The notes under the pieces: model-generated
Database searches by the model: none
The model's input: only the letters and a program-made list of their open reading frames with translations
What the model was told of the DNA's origin: nothing
In this document: piece after piece, positions 2,243 to 6,637 of the stretch
How positions within the stretch are numbered: the stretch's first letter is position 1
How the letters are laid out: every line of letters starts with the position of its first letter
Translations under genes and position numbers: made by a program
NCBI GenBank assembly: GCA_035328405.1
Contig: DAOLIT010000112.1
Location: 1-15,076 of the forward strand
Source of the DNA: Pseudomonadota bacterium
GTDB taxonomy: Bacteria; Myxococcota_A; Polyangia; Palsa-1104; JAEUJZ01
DNA length: 15,076 bases
Direction of reading: 5' to 3'

Positions 2243-2497
2243 TCAGGACAGCGACGACCAAACTCGTTCTGAAAAGGCGACGATCTGTGCGATGATGTAG
2301 GGGCCAGCGACAAAAAGGGTGGCGATTCCGAACAGCAAACGCACGGCGGTGGGCAGAGAGGAATCGGTCACGCCGAGTTTGGCCATCAACCACGATGTGA
2401 TGACGGCAGCGACGGCGGCAGCGATGACGATCGGCAAACTGCACAAGACAGCGAGCCACAAAGCAGAGGTCAAAAGGGGGAGGAGAGCGTCGCTCAT
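2243..2497 (-). CDS. fliQ: Type III export-apparatus protein FliQ/SctS family (84 aa)
   Basis: Small two-TM protein 'MSDALLPLLTSALWLAVLCSLPIVIAAAVAAVITSWLMAKLGVTDSSLPTAVRLLFGIATLFVAGPYIIAQIVAF...'. Its length and hydrophobic pattern align with FliQ, including the conserved AGPW/AGPY region. It sits immediately after fliP, and its ATG overlaps the fliP stop as ATGA at 2494-2497. Confidence 0.6.
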   Translation of the reverse strand: MSDALLPLLTSALWLAVLCSLPIVIAAAVAAVITSWLMAKLGVTDSSLPTAVRLLFGIATLFVAGPYIIAQIVAFSERVWSSLS

Positions 2498-3147
2498 GGG
2501 GTCCTCAGAAGCAGCGCACGGTAGAGCAAGGAAAAGCCGTCACACAGAAGGAACAGGAGCAATTTGAAGGGCAGCGTCACGGTTCGTGCAGAGAGGCCCG
2601 AGATGGACAACCCGGAAAGCAAAAAGGCGGCAACGAGATCGAGGAGCAAAAAGGGAAGAAGCAGGAGAAATGCAAGAGAGAAGGCGGCTCGCAATTCAGA
2701 TAGGAAAAAGGACGCTAGATGAAAGGACAAATCGCCGGTTTCGACGGTAGCAGCGTGTTGTCTGTTGGCACGGGAAAGGAGTGCAGAGACCAGTTGGCGA
2801 TCTTCGGGCCTTGTGTGTTCGGTCAGGAATTGGGAAAGGGGGGCAAGGCCCATCTGCCATGGAGTGGCACTTGCTGGTTGTGTTTGCCGTGCCTGTTGTG
2901 CCTGTTGGTTTTGCTGGATTTGGGCATCGGATAATGCAGTCATGCTGCGGCGAAAAACGGGAGACATGGTTAGGGTGGAAAGTGTAAGACCGAGCATGAC
3001 GGTCACGATGAGGGGAGGCATTCCTCCGCCTATTCCTCGACGAAGAACTTGCAGGAGGATCGCGATTTTGACGTAGGCAATCAGGGAAAAAAAGACAAAG
3101 AAAACGATAGGAAAAACAGCGAATGGGAGTTCGTTGAGGAGGTTCAT
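2494..3147 (-). CDS. fliP: Type III export-gate protein FliP/SctR family (218 aa from Met 3147)
   Basis: Translation contains 'YVKIAILLQVLRRGIGGGMPPLIVTVMLGLTLSTLTMSPV' and 'LSELRAAFSLAFLLLLPFLLLDLVAAFLLSGLSISGLSARTVTLPFKLLLFLLCDGFSLL'. These match the FliP signature blocks (LRNALG..PP, IPFLIIDLV...LPFKL.LFVLVDGW.LL). An AAGGAG SD lies 7 nt before ATG 3147. The ORF-track start at 3204 is an upstream in-frame extension. This gene's ATG overlaps the fliO stop as ATGA at 3144-3147. Confidence 0.85.
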   Translation of the reverse strand: MNLLNELPFAVFPIVFFVFFSLIAYVKIAILLQVLRRGIGGGMPPLIVTVMLGLTLSTLTMSPVFRRSMTALSDAQIQQNQQAQQARQTQPASATPWQMGLAPLSQFLTEHTRPEDRQLVSALLSRANRQHAATVETGDLSFHLASFFLSELRAAFSLAFLLLLPFLLLDLVAAFLLSGLSISGLSARTVTLPFKLLLFLLCDGFSLLYRALLLRTP

Positions 3148-3696: not shown

Positions 3697-3709
3697 TGCG
3701 GGGAGCGCG

Positions 3710-6637
3710 CTATTTCTTGGGTTCGGGTTTGGTCGGGGGTTTGGCGGTGAGGGCTTCTTGGAGGGCAGGCGCAAACCGGGTGCCACCGACGACTTCCTTG
3801 AGGATTTCGCCGGCTTCTTTGCCTCGGAAGAGGGACACGAGGTTCATGTTTTGTGCGACCTCGGACAGAAGGTTCTTGTCGCCGAGTGCAGTGAGGGCCT
3901 CGACGAGCTGAGGCTGAACGGCGGTACGCTCAGCGACGATGGCTCGAGCCTGCGCGTCGAGAAGGGCCATGTCGAGACCTTTTACGCGACTCAAATGGGC
4001 AAATTCCTCTTCGTGAAGGGATTGTGCGGCCTGGGCTTTGGTGGCGGCGTCTTTGAGGAGTGCGTCGCGGTGCGCGGTCTGGGCGGCGGTGTCTCGTTCG
4101 ATGCGGCGCGAAAGCTCCTGGGCTTCGCGTTCAGCGACGAGCTGGGATTGCTCTTTTGAGGCCTGCTCTTTGTCGCGCAGCTCAGCGAGGCGGGCTTCCT
4201 GAGACAGTTTGCGTTCGAGCTCTTTGAGCTTGGCCTCGTGCTCGCGGACTTGGGCCTGAAGCTCGTGGTTTTTGAGCTCGAGTTCGGCGCGAAGTTTGGT
4301 GGACTGGAGCTTGTCTTGGGCCTGGCGGTCGCCGATGGTGAGGGTGACAGATTCGCGCTGGACGGTGCGCATGAGCTCGGCGATGAGCTCGTCCTCGATG
4401 GTGGCGTCGAGCACCTCGACTTCGTGGACGAGCATGCCATTTTCGGCGAAAAAGCGGCCTTTTCGGCTGCCGTCGGCTTCGTTGCGGACTCCCAAAATGG
4501 TGTCTCGCACGACGGCGGCGAGCTGGGGCCAAAGGGAGGAAAGGGAGAGGGTGCGGGTCCGGCTGCGCACAATGGAGCGCAAATGGTCACACAGGAGCTG
4601 GATGTAGTTTTCTGCGTTGAACCATTTGTCTTTGTGATCGCGCAAAAACGTCACAGCGACGGTAATGCGGAGTCGGATTCGCACAAAATCAGCGGTTTCG
4701 AGCTCGATGACATCGCTGACGCGGTTGCCGATGGTGCGCAAAAAACAGGTGATGAGGGGCTCGTTGTCCTCTTTGGGGGTGCCGGTGGAAAGCTTGAGGG
4801 GAACGAGGTTTTCTTCGTATTCGAGGAGCGTGACGCAGGGGCCTTCGATGACGCGCTGTCCGGCGGCGCTTGTGGCGAGTACTGCGGTGTTGTGGGGGAC
4901 GATGATCGAGATGGCCCAGGGGGTCGTTACGGTTGAAGGAGTCCGCTTGTGGGGTTCACTGGCGGCGATCCACAAATTCCAATCGTGGGTGTTGACGGAA
5001 CGGGTGATGTGAATTTCTTTTCGGGGGTCCACAAGGTAGGACTGTTTGCCGCGAATGAGTCGGACTTCTCCGGTGGTGAGGTCGCGGACGTAGATGCCGC
5101 TTTTTTGGTCGATGCCAATCGCTTCGATGAAGACGTTGGAATGGTCGTTTCCGACGACAGCTTCGCCAGTATGGGGGGACAGAACTTCGATTTCGTTGAA
5201 CGGAAAGAAAAAGCCGCTGACGCCAGACAGGAGGAGCTCGTCGCCGGGGAAGTAGTGTTCTTTTTCCATCTCGACGCCGCGCGGCATTTTTTTCGACATT
5301 TCGTCGCGACTGATCTGGGAAATGACGCGGAGCCAGAGCGCGCGTTGCGGCAACAGTTCGTAGGCGTCGTACACACGGCTGCTGGAACCCTTGATCATGA
5401 AGGTGTCGTAGGGGCCGGGGAAGACGCGGGCGGGGCCGACTTTGATTTCGCGTTTTCCGTCGGGATCGATGAGGACGCAGTATTCCTTTTCGCCAAGGAC
5501 GACGGCGCTGCGAATGAGACGGGCTTGGCGGGCCTCCTTTTCGATGGCCTTGCGCAACGCATCCGAGGACATCACATCGTCGATGGATACGCTGGGTTGG
5601 CTCGGTGGGGGAAGTGCGGGAGAAGGAGCCGGCGCAGCGACGGGAAGCGGGGGCGGCGGCGGGCTAGGGGCTCGCAGACTGCCTTGGGAGGCACCGGCTG
5701 GGGCGGCGGGCGCTTGGGGAGCGACGCGCTGCCGGTTGCGTGCGGTTTGATCGACGATGTTCGACGCGGCCTCGGCTTGATACTGCGCGACGGCTCGTCG
5801 GGGCGCACGGCTGCGCTCGAGCGCACTTTCGTCATCGTCGAGGGACAGTTCGCCATATTCGTCGGCGGTTGCGGCCATTTTCTTGGCCGGTTGGGGCGGC
5901 GGCATGGGCGCAGCGGGCGGTTTTGCAAGCTGCGTCTGCATCTGCTGGACAAGCTTTTGTGCCAGCGACGCACTGACCGTCGCCCCGGATTGGTCCACCG
6001 AGGTATCGGGCACGATGTCCACGCCGGTCGGCGGAATGTAGAACTGGGTGTCGATGCCTCGGATGACGATGAGCTGGCCTCGCTTGAGGTCCTGCTCGAG
6101 ACCTTTTTCGGGCAGGGGCGTGGGGCGGCCATCGAGGGCTTCTGCCGTCGCTCGGGTGATGGCTGCGGACCGTGCGGTCACATCAAAATACGGAGCAGTC
6201 CGATCGACGGGACCGTAGACTTTGACGACCAAATACTGGCTGGCGGAAAGCTCGTGGGCGTCGCGGACCTCGCACCGTTGGCCGGGGCGCAAAAAGAAAC
6301 TGCACGGGCCGGGAATCATGGCGCGAGTGCCGTTTTTTTGGGGCCGAGCTTCGTTGCGCCCGACGCGGAACCGACCATTGGGTCCGCCGTCGTTTTCCAA
6401 AAGAGGATTGAAAAGGACGGCGTATTGGTGGTCGCCGACCTCGATCATCATTTGGGGGCGACCGGTGGTGTCCTCTCGGAAACTACCGAGGCCGTCGTCG
6501 ATGACGACGCGATCGGCTGCGGTGGGCGAAACCATCGTCGGACCTACGTGCAACGTAACTTCGCCTTTGTCGTCGTCTTGGACCCAAAGAAACTGTCGTT
6601 CCGTAACCGGGATTTTGCGGCTGCCTCGCTCGTTCAT
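3710..6637 (-). CDS. Major vault protein (MVP) homologue, ~975 aa. It has N-terminal MVP repeat domains interrupted by a ~150-aa P/A/Q-rich low-complexity insertion, then the shoulder domain, then a cap-helix coiled coil.
   Basis: N-terminus 'KIPVTERQFLWVQDDDKGEVTLHVGPT' versus human MVP '[28 protein letters not shown]'. 'GIYVRDLTTGEVRLIRG' versus 'GIYVQDVKTGKVRAVIG'. 'IIVPHNTAVLATSA' versus 'RVPHNAAVQVYDY'. 'VIELETADFVRIRLRITVAVTF' versus '[22 protein letters not shown]'. A long ~150-aa E/K/Q/A-rich heptad region follows, 'ELELKNHELQAQVREHEAKLKELERKLSQEARLAELRDKEQ...'. The preferred start is ATG 6637, which has a GGGGGGA SD at 4-nt spacing. The ORF-track start at 6670 is 11 codons upstream. 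Confidence 0.85.
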   Translation of the reverse strand: MNERGSRKIPVTERQFLWVQDDDKGEVTLHVGPTMVSPTAADRVVIDDGLGSFREDTTGRPQMMIEVGDHQYAVLFNPLLENDGGPNGRFRVGRNEARPQKNGTRAMIPGPCSFFLRPGQRCEVRDAHELSASQYLVVKVYGPVDRTAPYFDVTARSAAITRATAEALDGRPTPLPEKGLEQDLKRGQLIVIRGIDTQFYIPPTGVDIVPDTSVDQSGATVSASLAQKLVQQMQTQLAKPPAAPMPPPQPAKKMAATADEYGELSLDDDESALERSRAPRRAVAQYQAEAASNIVDQTARNRQRVAPQAPAAPAGASQGSLRAPSPPPPPLPVAAPAPSPALPPPSQPSVSIDDVMSSDALRKAIEKEARQARLIRSAVVLGEKEYCVLIDPDGKREIKVGPARVFPGPYDTFMIKGSSSRVYDAYELLPQRALWLRVISQISRDEMSKKMPRGVEMEKEHYFPGDELLLSGVSGFFFPFNEIEVLSPHTGEAVVGNDHSNVFIEAIGIDQKSGIYVRDLTTGEVRLIRGKQSYLVDPRKEIHITRSVNTHDWNLWIAASEPHKRTPSTVTTPWAISIIVPHNTAVLATSAAGQRVIEGPCVTLLEYEENLVPLKLSTGTPKEDNEPLITCFLRTIGNRVSDVIELETADFVRIRLRITVAVTFLRDHKDKWFNAENYIQLLCDHLRSIVRSRTRTLSLSSLWPQLAAVVRDTILGVRNEADGSRKGRFFAENGMLVHEVEVLDATIEDELIAELMRTVQRESVTLTIGDRQAQDKLQSTKLRAELELKNHELQAQVREHEAKLKELERKLSQEARLAELRDKEQASKEQSQLVAEREAQELSRRIERDTAAQTAHRDALLKDAATKAQAAQSLHEEEFAHLSRVKGLDMALLDAQARAIVAERTAVQPQLVEALTALGDKNLLSEVAQNMNLVSLFRGKEAGEILKEVVGGTRFAPALQEALTAKPPTKPEPKK

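What the first reader, a model, noticed from the sequence alone, without database searches (positions are those of the whole stretch)
2243..6637. MVP sits directly upstream of a fliO-fliP-fliQ export-gate module in the same direction, with no fliR: a possible vault/type-III-gate association
MVP is followed 150 bp later by fliO, fliP and fliQ. The two ATGA overlaps at 3144-3147 and 2494-2497 imply translational coupling. In flagellar loci fliO is normally preceded by fliN or fliM and fliQ is followed by fliR. Here MVP takes the upstream slot and an unusual kinase takes the fliR slot, and no FliR-like hydrophobic ORF exists in any frame of 1-2242. So this may be a degenerate or orphan gate module, or one repurposed with a vault-like shell. 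It could also simply be a rearranged flagellar locus. No similar arrangement has been described.
Basis: partly seen in the sequence, partly recalled or inferred. Interest (0 to 1): 0.8.

Follow-up and report, generated by a model that had tools for sequence, protein, structure and literature searches.

The report
Orphan FliOPQ beside bacterial vault-protein gene
A vault-protein-like gene and a stripped-down three-gene remnant of a type III secretion gate lie side by side in one sludge myxobacterium, but relatives show the two are not linked; the mildly unusual part is the remnant, which has lost FliR and always sits next to a membrane kinase.

Summary
On the minus strand a true MVP homolog (3710-6637) is followed after 152 bp by fliO, fliP and fliQ, joined by two ATGA overlaps. 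No FliR follows, only a two-TM Ser/Thr kinase.

The proposed vault/gate association is not supported. None of 49 MVP loci with at least 1.5 kb downstream carries fliOPQ. None of the other fliOPQ(R) lineages carries MVP. In two genomes that hold both, they lie on different contigs. MVP has no conserved neighbours.

fliO also has its own promoter-like element (TTGACA-N17/18-TSTSAT, then 6-9 nt to the ATG). It is conserved in 9 loci whose upstream genes all differ.

fliOPQ is the most reduced form of the Myxococcota needle-less T3SS gate. The series runs from a full J-Q-O-R-S-T-U-V locus, to orphan O-P-Q-R in two clades, to a monophyletic FliR-less O-P-Q subclade. In that subclade a membrane Ser/Thr kinase always lies downstream.

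FliP and FliQ are under purifying selection (dN/dS 0.1-0.5). Whether SctV, SctN or a FliR exists elsewhere in this genome could not be tested. A published bin table suggests dispersed SctV/N/L/J and no SctT/U in similar sludge Polyangia.

Verdict: incidental adjacency, plus a new reduced variant of a known system.

The parts
3710..6637 (-). Bacterial major-vault-protein (MVP) homolog, 975 aa. The ORF extends to 6670. It has N-terminal beta repeats, a Pro-rich low-complexity insert (about residues 240-370), an SPFH-like shoulder and a long cap-helix coiled coil. It is a stand-alone gene and not part of the gate module.
   Evidence: Pfam finds MVP_shoulder at 9e-19, plus Vault_3 and a sub-threshold Vault_4. 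phmmer against rat MVP gives E 1.6e-20 over residues 390-910. The Foldseek top 12 hits are all vault MVP, but the model is poor (pLDDT 47.8). There are 268 homologs, mostly Polyangia. It has no conserved neighbours.
3605..3691 (.). Pyrimidine-rich (on the coding strand) tandem repeats of 14 and 20 nt in the MVP-fliO spacer. Function unknown.
   Evidence: Tandem Repeats Finder. No terminator-like hairpin is found in the spacer.
3538..3567 (-). Conserved promoter-like element of fliO. TTGACA is at 3567-3562, an 18-nt spacer follows, and TCTCAT is at 3543-3538. It lies 7 nt upstream of the ATG at 3530.
   Evidence: TTGACA and T.T.AT are invariant in 9 of 9 loci, whose upstream genes all differ. 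Its role as a promoter is inferred. The second hexamer lacks A2, so the consensus scan did not report it.
3144..3557 (-). FliO homolog with one TM helix. The likely true start is 3530 (128 aa). Its stop overlaps the fliP start (ATGA).
   Evidence: PF04347 at 1.7e-7. TIGR03500 at 2.8e-8, below cut-off. The conserved start is shown in A5. dN/dS is 0.35-0.77.
2494..3147 (-). FliP/SctR homolog, 217 aa. It has no signal peptide or N-terminal extension. The gate loop reads GLSISGLS where flagellar FliP has GMMML.
   Evidence: PF00813 at 1e-32. Solved FliP chains match at 1e-17 and SpaP at 1e-13. The NCBIfam SctR subfamily scores 118 bits against a cut-off of 179. The AF2 model has pLDDT 70.6, and all 42 significant Foldseek hits are FliP/SctR. 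dN/dS is 0.11-0.45.
2243..2497 (-). FliQ/SctS homolog, 84 aa, with two TM helices. Its start overlaps the fliP stop (ATGA).
   Evidence: PF01313 at 4e-9. TIGR01403 (SctS) scores 41.6 bits against 28 bits for fliQ. dN/dS is 0.10-0.49.
1..2187 (-). Membrane Ser/Thr kinase, cut by the window edge (879-902 aa in full-length contigs). In order it has an N-terminal kinase-C-lobe-like pseudo-domain (about 180 aa), TM1, a Pro/Lys/Asp-rich loop of about 270 aa, TM2 and a Pkinase domain. It occupies the slot where FliR sits in related orphan modules.
   Evidence: The open frame is shown. Pkinase scores 8.8e-49 in two stretches on the full-length L008 copy. The same architecture lies downstream of fliOPQ in L087, L090, L091 and L103, and a different kinase does in L084.

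Best explanation
Two unrelated units have been placed side by side by a rearrangement confined to this species-level lineage of activated-sludge Polyangia.

**Unit 1: MVP.** This is a stand-alone cytoplasmic MVP homolog of a family common in Polyangia. It has no conserved gene partners.

**Unit 2: fliO-fliP-fliQ plus the downstream kinase.** This is an autonomous unit with its own conserved promoter-like element. It is the most reduced known derivative of the Myxococcota needle-less T3SS export gate. The series of forms is:
1. a full SctJ-SctQ-FliO-SctR-S-T-U-V locus;
2. orphan FliO-P-Q-R modules, in two clades;
3. a single loss of FliR in one monophyletic subclade, where a two-TM Ser/Thr kinase follows fliQ instead.

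**Shown:** homology, gene order, loss of FliR from the locus, purifying selection on FliP and FliQ, the conserved promoter-like element, the conserved kinase linkage, and the lack of MVP linkage.

**Inferred mechanism:** FliO chaperones assembly of a FliP ring with FliQ in the inner membrane, as in flagella. This FliR-less gate then most likely (about 45%) works with dispersed SctV, SctN/L and SctJ homologs encoded elsewhere, as a reduced inner-membrane export device. The kinase would sense or regulate it. Less likely (about 25%), it acts as an autonomous FliPQ membrane complex coupled to the kinase.
For: **Lack of MVP linkage**
- 0 of 49 MVP loci with at least 1.5 kb downstream have FliO/P/Q.
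- The best MVP neighbour family occurs in only 19 of 73 loci.
- CAYTGC01 and JAXLYE01 carry MVP and fliOPQ(R) on separate contigs.

**Autonomy of fliOPQ**
- The TTGACA-N17/18-TSTSAT element, 6-9 nt from the start codon, is conserved in 9 of 9 loci with unrelated upstream genes.

**Reduction series**
- L101 is a full short T3SS locus.
- L094, L098, L099, L096, L100 and L102 are orphan OPQR modules.
- The window, L084, L087, L090, L091 and L103 are OPQ without FliR.
- The FliR-less FliPs are monophyletic in an NJ tree.

**Constraint**
- ORFs and 4-bp overlaps stay intact at 50-60% amino-acid identity.
- dN/dS is 0.11-0.45 for FliP and 0.10-0.49 for FliQ.
- The FliP fold is recovered.

**Kinase linkage**
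- A kinase lies downstream in all 6 FliR-less lineages.

**Literature**
- FliO belongs to Myxococcota non-flagellar T3SS (PMC12248157).
- Myxococcales have needle-less T3SS loci (PMC3459982, PMC10433427).
- Four sludge bins of order Palsa-1104 (GC 0.60-0.65) have adjacent SctR+SctS, no SctT or SctU hit, and SctV, SctN+L and SctJ elsewhere (SctQ in two bins; the fourth bin has SctR only) (PMC11821767 Table S5).
Against: - The rest of this organism's genome could not be scanned. A FliR/SctT elsewhere, or a complete second T3SS, is therefore not excluded.
- Assignment of the window to Palsa-1104 rests only on matching GC and habitat.
- The published table used BLAST thresholds that could miss divergent SctT or SctU.
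- Kinases are very abundant in Myxococcota, so part of the kinase linkage may be inherited synteny rather than function.
- No terminator was found between MVP and fliO, so read-through co-transcription in this species is possible.
- The promoter role of the conserved element is inferred, and its second hexamer lacks the usual A2.
- dS is near saturation, so the dN/dS values are rough.
Confidence: 0.72

Rival explanations
1. Autonomous mini-gate. FliO, FliP and FliQ assemble a FliR-less membrane complex that works without any other T3SS part. The co-encoded two-TM kinase would be its functional or physical partner, possibly filling the FliR position. The complex would act as a gated pore or a signalling scaffold.
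For: - No T3SS gene lies within 10 kb in any orphan locus.
- The kinase sits in the fliR slot in all six FliR-less lineages, and in none of the six FliR-containing orphan lineages.
- Orphan FliPs are far more divergent than the SctR of the complete locus: 118 bits against 233 bits on the same profile.
- From my own knowledge of Fukumura et al. 2017 (not re-read here), purified FliP can form homo-oligomeric rings with FliO's help.
Against: - Published bins that resemble this lineage contain SctV, SctN/L and SctJ homologs elsewhere.
- There is no sequence similarity between the kinase and FliR.
- The kinase has only two TM helices, separated by a 270-aa loop.
- No experimental data exist.
Confidence: 0.25
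2. Decaying relic. fliOPQ is a non-functional leftover of an ancestral T3SS on its way to loss, and its neighbours are irrelevant.
For: - Components are lost progressively across clades, from the full locus to OPQR to OPQ.
- All profile scores fall below curated cut-offs.
- FliO evolves fast (dN/dS up to 0.77).
- The Met-rich gate loop is absent.
Against: - ORFs are intact and the start/stop overlaps are conserved in six lineages that have diverged to synonymous saturation.
- FliP and FliQ have dN/dS of 0.1-0.5.
- The promoter-like element is conserved.
- The exact FliP sequence recurs in 22 contigs from many samples without disruption.
- The non-Met loop is shared with the complete Myxococcota locus (L101), so it is a lineage trait and not decay.
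Confidence: 0.08
3. MVP and fliOPQ are co-transcribed and cooperate, for example as a vault- or SPFH-like dome over a membrane gate.
For: - Both units have the same orientation, with a 152-bp spacer and no terminator-like hairpin.
- The MVP shoulder is SPFH-like, and SPFH proteins such as HflK/C and flotillin form cages over membrane complexes. They are the next-best Foldseek hits after MVP.
- The arrangement recurs in contigs from several samples of the same species.
Against: - The adjacency is seen only in contigs with 100% identical FliP, that is, in one species.
- It is absent in 49 informative MVP loci and in all other fliOPQ lineages.
- The two units are unlinked in the nearest relative (MVP 86% identical).
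- MVP has no TM segment or signal peptide.
- fliO has its own conserved promoter-like element.
Confidence: 0.04

Closest known systems
Myxococcota needle-less non-flagellar T3SS (the 'Myxo' short and long loci of Abby & Rocha 2012; T3SS* of Myxococcus xanthus)
   Same: The gene order FliO-SctR-SctS is the same. It occurs in the same phylum. The gate loop is likewise non-Met (GLTQLSP in L101, GLSISGLS here). Both lack a secretin and a needle. FliP and FliQ score best against the SctR and SctS profiles (PMC3459982, PMC12248157, PMC10433427).
   Different: Here SctT, SctU, SctV, SctJ, SctQ, SctN and SctL are all missing from the locus. The FliP is much more divergent (118 against 233 bits). A Ser/Thr kinase follows fliQ.
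Flagellar export gate FliO/FliP5-FliQ4-FliR1(-FlhB) (for example PDB 6F2D, 6S3L)
   Same: FliP and FliQ are homologous and the predicted FliP fold matches (TM about 0.5 to the FliP chains of 6S3R, 6S3L and 6F2D). The FliO chaperone gene lies upstream. The genes are translationally coupled.
   Different: There is no FliR, and no FlhB or FlhA adjacent. The FliP signal peptide and N-terminal extension are absent. There is no Met-Met-Met loop. The host lineage is non-flagellated.
Orphan FliO-FliP-FliQ-FliR modules of Polyangia/Myxococcales MAGs (found here: L094, L098, L099; L096, L100, L102)
   Same: They are the nearest relatives (FliP 38-46% identical). Clade A shares the same promoter-like element upstream of fliO. 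They are also isolated from other T3SS genes.
   Different: They retain FliR (203-261 aa) and a clade-specific fifth gene. None has a kinase directly downstream (L098 has a large kinase about 9.5 kb away on the opposite strand). I found no publication that describes these modules.
Scattered or partial T3SS sets. Examples: Chlamydiales scattered NF-T3SS; the E. coli ETT2 remnant lacking sctT; FliO homologs in non-flagellated Chlamydiia and Rhizobiales; the 'CORE' FliOPQR-FlhBA nanotube platform
   Same: They are precedents for T3SS export-apparatus genes that are dispersed, partly lost, or used outside flagella and injectisomes (PMC3459982, PMC12248157, PMC6456723).
   Different: None is a conserved FliOPQ-only trio with a kinase. 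ETT2 is regarded as cryptic, and the CORE set includes FliR, FlhB and FlhA.
Eukaryotic major vault protein, and the bacterial MVP homologs already reported in Myxococcales, Cytophagales and Oscillatoriales
   Same: The repeat, shoulder and cap-helix architecture is shared. Residues 390-910 align to rat MVP. Bacterial homologs in Myxococcales are already reported (bioRxiv 10.1101/872010; PMC3762200).
   Different: There is a Pro-rich insert of about 130 aa. No vPARP, TEP1 or vault RNA was found in the window: Rfam gave nothing, and no window ORF of 50 aa or more resembles vPARP or TEP1. Assembly into a vault is untested. Any link to the T3SS gate is incidental.

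Membership tests
T3SS export-gate core (FliPQR / SctRST) | FliP/SctR subunit | tested here: met
   PF00813 at 1e-32. Solved FliP chains match at 1e-17. Foldseek hits are exclusively FliP/SctR. It scores below the NCBIfam curated cut-offs (118 against 179 bits).
T3SS export-gate core (FliPQR / SctRST) | FliQ/SctS subunit encoded next to FliP | tested here: met
   PF01313 at 4e-9, above the gathering score. 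TIGR01403 at 9.8e-11, below cut-off. It shares an ATGA overlap with fliP.
T3SS export-gate core (FliPQR / SctRST) | FliR/SctT subunit | tested here: not met
   No PF01311 protein is called in the locus. A FliR HMM built from the nearest orphan modules finds nothing at E<0.5 in six-frame translations of the window and of the nine other FliR-less loci, but recovers its five training sequences at 1e-60 to 1e-96. The rest of the genome was not searchable.
Complete T3SS (flagellar or non-flagellar) | FlhB/SctU, FlhA/SctV and the ATPase FliI/SctN in the same locus or genome | tested here: inconclusive
   They are absent from the 15-kb window and from 10 kb flanks. Genome-wide presence could not be tested. 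Published bins of similar GC and habitat have SctV and SctN/L elsewhere but no SctT or SctU hit.
Flagellar fliLMNOPQR-type operon | fliM/fliN upstream of fliO, fliR/flhB downstream, in a flagellated host | tested here: not met
   MVP lies upstream and a kinase downstream. Relatives have unrelated upstream genes. Myxococcota are non-flagellated (PMC11821767 and general knowledge).
Myxococcota needle-less T3SS (T3SS*) | FliO-SctR-SctS order, Myxococcota-type SctR sequence, and the SctJ/Q/T/U/V/N set | tested here: inconclusive
   The first two features are met. The companion genes are not in the locus. The module is therefore filed as a reduced derivative and not as a full member.
Vault particle (MVP shell) | MVP with repeat domains, shoulder and cap-helix | tested here: met
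   Pfam finds MVP_shoulder and Vault_3, with Vault_4 just below the gathering score. Rat MVP aligns over about 520 residues at E 1.6e-20. The Foldseek top hits are vault structures. The N-terminal 240 residues have no sequence match and the model is of low confidence.
Vault particle (MVP shell) | Assembly into a closed 39-fold half-vault; partners vPARP, TEP1 and vault RNA | not testable with these tools
   There is no Rfam hit in the window, and no window ORF of 50 aa or more resembles vPARP or TEP1. Oligomerisation needs experiment.
   0 of 49 informative MVP loci have fliOPQ. No other fliOPQ(R) lineage has MVP. The two are unlinked in CAYTGC01 and JAXLYE01.

The most novel reading that the evidence does not exclude
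A natural type III export gate that works without FliR/SctT. In one monophyletic Polyangia lineage, FliO-assisted FliP/FliQ would form a functional inner-membrane complex lacking the 'obligatory' FliR subunit (and probably SctU). A two-TM Ser/Thr kinase was recruited into the fliR slot as its partner or regulator. This would give a living example of a simpler FliP/FliQ-only gate stoichiometry and of kinase-coupled control of a T3SS-derived pore.
Probability: 0.2. Interest if true: 0.7.

Novelty: new variant of a known kind. Interest (0 to 1): 0.38.

Why it matters
The vault-gate idea would have been striking, but it does not hold, and that removes a false lead.

What remains is of moderate interest to people who study T3SS evolution and structure. 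The export-gate core is regarded as an obligate FliP5-FliQ4-FliR1 assembly. A lineage that keeps FliO, FliP and FliQ under selection after losing FliR from the locus tests how indispensable FliR is. So does the graded series from the full locus to OPQR to OPQ. It also bears on how T3SS parts are shed or repurposed in non-flagellated predators.

Two further results are concrete and experimentally tractable. One is the conserved leaderless-type promoter element. The other is the strict kinase linkage.

The work also documents that bacterial MVP homologs in Polyangia are stand-alone genes, which is useful for anyone looking for bacterial vault partners.

Tried and rejected
1. **MVP neighbourhood search.** Clustering of ORFs around 73 MVP loci found no conserved partner (best family in 19 of 73 loci).
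2. **Metagenome scan with the orphan FliP alignment.** It returned mostly ordinary FliP/SctR, and only L103 was informative.
3. **Loss of the Met-rich gate loop as a mark of neofunctionalisation.** Rejected as a specific trait. The complete Myxococcota locus (L101) also has no Met there, and injectisome-type SctRs have only 1-2 Met.
4. **AlphaFold model of MVP.** It was too poor (pLDDT 47.8) for domain-level claims beyond the shoulder and cap helix.
5. **The consensus promoter/terminator scan.** It found nothing in the MVP-fliO spacer. The conserved element emerged only from comparison between loci.
6. **The fifth gene of orphan clade B as a degenerate FlhB/SctU.** Motifs at both ends are suggestive, but hhalign gives only E 0.2, so this stays tentative.
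7. **A dif-like site at the GC-skew turning point.** No match was found.
8. **Rfam and tRNA scans of the window.** Both were empty.
9. **PADLOC.** Only generic kinase-domain matches appeared.
10. **Pfam and BLAST on L096's 203-aa gene.** Both were negative. It aligns with the PF01311-positive L100 FliR, so it was accepted as FliR.

Full report
**Observation.**
All genes of the finding lie on the minus strand.
- The 986-codon ORF at 3710-6670 is a true MVP homolog. Relatives and gene callers start it at 6637, giving 975 aa.
  - Pfam finds MVP_shoulder at 9e-19 and Vault_3, with Vault_4 just below its gathering score.
  - Residues 390-910 align to rat MVP 274-777 at E 1.6e-20.
  - The AlphaFold model is poor (pLDDT 47.8), but its 12 best PDB matches are still vault structures, followed by SPFH cages.
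- After a 152-bp spacer come three genes: FliO at 3144-3557 (PF04347), FliP at 2494-3147 (PF00813, 1e-32) and FliQ at 2243-2497 (PF01313).
- Both ATGA start/stop overlaps are present.
- The frame downstream of fliQ is open to the window edge. It encodes a Ser/Thr kinase with an N-terminal kinase-C-lobe-like pseudo-domain, two TM helices flanking a Pro/Lys/Asp-rich loop, and a Pkinase domain.
- No FliR exists in any frame. An HMM built from five related FliRs recovers those five at 1e-60 to 1e-96, but gives E>0.5 on the window and on the nine other FliR-less loci.

**Source.**
- The exact FliP sequence occurs on 22 contigs from activated-sludge and similar metagenomes. It is in NCBI as HMU41233.1, from a MAG labelled 'Pseudomonadota bacterium'.
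- The MVP family is overwhelmingly Polyangia, including Polyangium, Byssovorax and Minicystis.
- Up to 10 kb beyond the window there is still no FliR, FlhB or FlhA.

**Is MVP linked to fliOPQ? No.**
- A genome-collection scan gave 73 MVP loci. Of these, 61 contain the 3' end of the gene and 49 have at least 1.5 kb downstream. None has FliO, FliP or FliQ by tblastn, including four with 84-87% identical MVP.
- MVP has no conserved neighbour at all. The best neighbour family occurs in 19 of 73 loci and the rest in 9 or fewer.
- From the other side, FliP relatives were placed on their contigs. No locus outside the window's own species has MVP.
- Two assemblies contain both genes on different contigs.
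  - CAYTGC01 is the nearest relative. MVP (86% identical) is on contig 35 and fliOPQ on contig 279.
  - In JAXLYE01, MVP is on contig 2 and fliOPQR on contig 3.

**fliOPQ is its own unit.**
- I aligned the DNA upstream of fliO from nine loci whose upstream genes are all different. The upstream genes identified include MVP, DUF2891, a radical-SAM enzyme, an Arf-like GTPase, a DHH phosphoesterase and PaaA/C.
- The alignment shows an invariant TTGACA, then 17-18 nt, then T[C/G]T[C/G]AT. After 6-9 more nt comes a conserved start codon (M-[L/P/V]-[A/S]-Q-L in most loci).
- In the window the element lies at 3567-3538, and the conserved start is the ATG at 3530.
- The geometry is that of a sigma-70-type promoter producing a leaderless mRNA. 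That role is inferred and not shown.
- The ATG at 3557 sits between the two hexamers, so FliO is probably 128 aa.
- No terminator-like hairpin lies in the spacer, so read-through from MVP cannot be excluded.

**What fliOPQ is.**
- By profiles, FliP and FliQ are slightly nearer to non-flagellar SctR and SctS than to flagellar FliP and FliQ. All scores are below curated cut-offs.
- The FliP fold is recovered (pLDDT 70.6), and all 42 significant PDB matches are FliP/SctR chains.
- A profile search found hundreds of Myxococcota SctR-like proteins. Their contexts form a series:
  1. L101 is a 'short' needle-less T3SS locus: SctJ, an unknown gene, SctQ, FliO, SctR, SctS, SctT, SctU and SctV. This is the type described for Myxococcales by Abby & Rocha (PMC3459982). 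FliO is known to belong to it (PMC12248157).
  2. Two clades carry orphan FliO-P-Q-R modules with no other T3SS gene within 10 kb. Each has its own fifth gene.
     - Clade A: L094, L098 and L099.
     - Clade B: L096, L100 and L102.
  3. The window subclade has FliO-P-Q only. It comprises the window, L084, L087, L090, L091 and L103.
- In an NJ tree of 131 sequences, the FliR-less proteins form one clade of 14. That clade is grouped with clade A, and the full-locus type sits nearer the flagellar outgroup. This points to a single loss of FliR.
- The gate loop has no methionines, unlike flagellar GMMML. The complete L101 locus shares this (GLTQLSP), so it is a lineage trait and not evidence of decay.

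**Constraint.**
- Across the six FliR-less lineages (FliP 48-72% identical), the ORFs and the 4-bp overlaps are intact.
- NG86 dN/dS is 0.11-0.45 for FliP, 0.10-0.49 for FliQ and 0.35-0.77 for FliO. dS is near saturation, so the true ratios are probably lower.
- This argues against a decaying relic.

**The kinase.**
- All six FliR-less lineages have a membrane Ser/Thr kinase downstream.
- Five share the unusual pseudo-C-lobe/TM/loop/TM/kinase architecture. In L087 and L103 a hexapeptide acetyltransferase gene lies between fliQ and the kinase.
- L084 has a different Pkinase-HEAT protein.
- None of the six FliR-containing orphan lineages has a kinase in that position.
- The kinase shows no similarity to FliR.
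- Kinases are abundant in Myxococcota, so the linkage is suggestive and not proof of a functional tie.

**Are other T3SS parts elsewhere?**
- I could not scan the genome.
- A published table of 46 activated-sludge Myxococcota bins is informative (PMC11821767, Tables S2 and S5).
  - Four bins belong to order Palsa-1104. Their GC is 0.60-0.65, against about 0.60 for the window, and they are 85-92% complete.
  - Three of these bins have adjacent SctR and SctS hits, and the fourth has SctR only. None has a SctT or SctU hit.
  - SctV, SctN+SctL and SctJ hits lie elsewhere in these bins, and SctQ hits in two of them.
  - Several Polyangiales bins instead have a full Q-R-S-T-U-V cluster plus an extra lone SctR.
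- I therefore rate a dispersed, reduced T3SS*-like apparatus lacking SctT/U as the most likely setting (about 45%). An autonomous FliPQ-kinase module is less likely (about 25%).
- The link between the window and Palsa-1104 rests only on GC and habitat.

**Comparison with the known.**
- Bacterial MVP homologs in Myxococcales are already described (bioRxiv 10.1101/872010; PMC3762200).
- Needle-less Myxococcota T3SS and their FliO are described (PMC3459982, PMC10433427, PMC12248157).
- I found no paper on orphan FliOPQR or FliR-less FliOPQ-kinase modules.
- The thing is therefore a new reduced variant of a known system. The MVP adjacency is incidental.

**Verdict.**
- The vault/gate interpretation is not supported.
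- The orphan-gate alternative is supported and refined.
- Interest is moderate to low (0.38).
- The most novel surviving reading is a functional FliR-less gate partnered with a kinase. I give it about 0.2 probability.

Noticed in passing
window 8888-12088 (minus strand): This is a microviridin-type graspetide (RiPP) gene cluster. The 69-aa precursor at 11879-12088 has two core-like motifs (TTKKFPSDSD and TLRYPSDDD). It passes the NCBIfam microviridin/marinostatin model at 32.5 bits against a cut-off of 26. The cluster also has an MvdD-family ATP-grasp ligase (10709-11800; TIGR04184 at 5.8e-111) and an ABC exporter (8888-10693). Only one ATP-grasp gene is present.
   Followed up: partly
window about 9600-10200, with composition across 1-15076: The GC skew of the + strand changes sign near 9.8 kb, although all genes from 1 to 13679 are on the same (minus) strand. 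Genes to the left (BNR, MVP, fliOPQ, kinase) have C3 well above G3 (MVP 0.51 against 0.21). The TM protein at 12174-13679 has G3 0.56 and C3 0.20. fliOPQ orthologs in L084, L087 and L091 have G3 well above C3, so the window copy lies on the opposite compositional strand. This could be a terminus-like region or an old inversion. No E. coli-type dif site was found.
   Followed up: partly
window 773-847; L008 versus L003: A hexamer tandem repeat encodes KD/KN dipeptide repeats in the kinase's periplasmic loop. Its copy number differs between contigs from different samples, giving proteins of 879 and 902 aa.
   Followed up: no
window 1-60 (left edge); L001/L002 versus L003/L007/L008: Contigs diverge right after the kinase HRD motif. 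L001 and L002 end the protein 15 codons later and continue into radical-SAM genes. L003, L007 and L008 complete the kinase and continue into MCP, FIST and cytochrome c genes. This is either strain variation or an assembly join at a conserved kinase motif. The window ends exactly there.
   Followed up: no
L100 11901-12734; L102 11458-12138; L096 4379-4588: The fifth gene of orphan clade B starts with an FlhB/SctU-like N-terminal motif (RxxRARRxGDxPRAP). In L100 it ends with a GVPVIEAP segment like the FlhB C-terminal domain. hhalign against the L101 SctU finds only that segment, at E 0.2. It is possibly a degenerate SctU.
   Followed up: partly
L094 5543-6247; L099 11913-12599: Orphan clade A has a conserved fifth gene, 82% identical between the two loci. 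It has an N-terminal TM helix, a CxxC-containing segment, a poly-Pro stretch and a conserved C-terminal domain. It has no Pfam match.
   Followed up: no
window 3710-6637, protein residues 12-235 and about 240-370: The N-terminal 225 residues of the MVP homolog are the most conserved part of the family, with long runs of invariant columns in A1. They have no match to solved structures or Pfam. They are followed by a poorly conserved Pro-rich insert of about 130 aa that rat MVP lacks.
   Followed up: no
window 6725-6868: Tandem repeats of 34, 11 and 8 nt lie in the 190-bp spacer between the BNR/Ycf48-like gene and MVP, that is, just upstream of the MVP start.
   Followed up: no
L084 3155-9305: Upstream of that lineage's fliOPQ lie several signalling genes: an FHA-sigma54 activator, a kinase-FGE-sulfatase protein, a DUF4384 protein and a 467-aa Arf/Ras-like GTPase. 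Together with the downstream kinase-HEAT protein, fliOPQ there is embedded in signalling genes.
   Followed up: no
window 4949-6730 (+), 12417-13738 (+) and others: Several very long ORFs (up to 593 aa) lie antisense to the real genes. They are shadow ORFs typical of GC-rich DNA and have no homology support. They should not be annotated.
   Followed up: no
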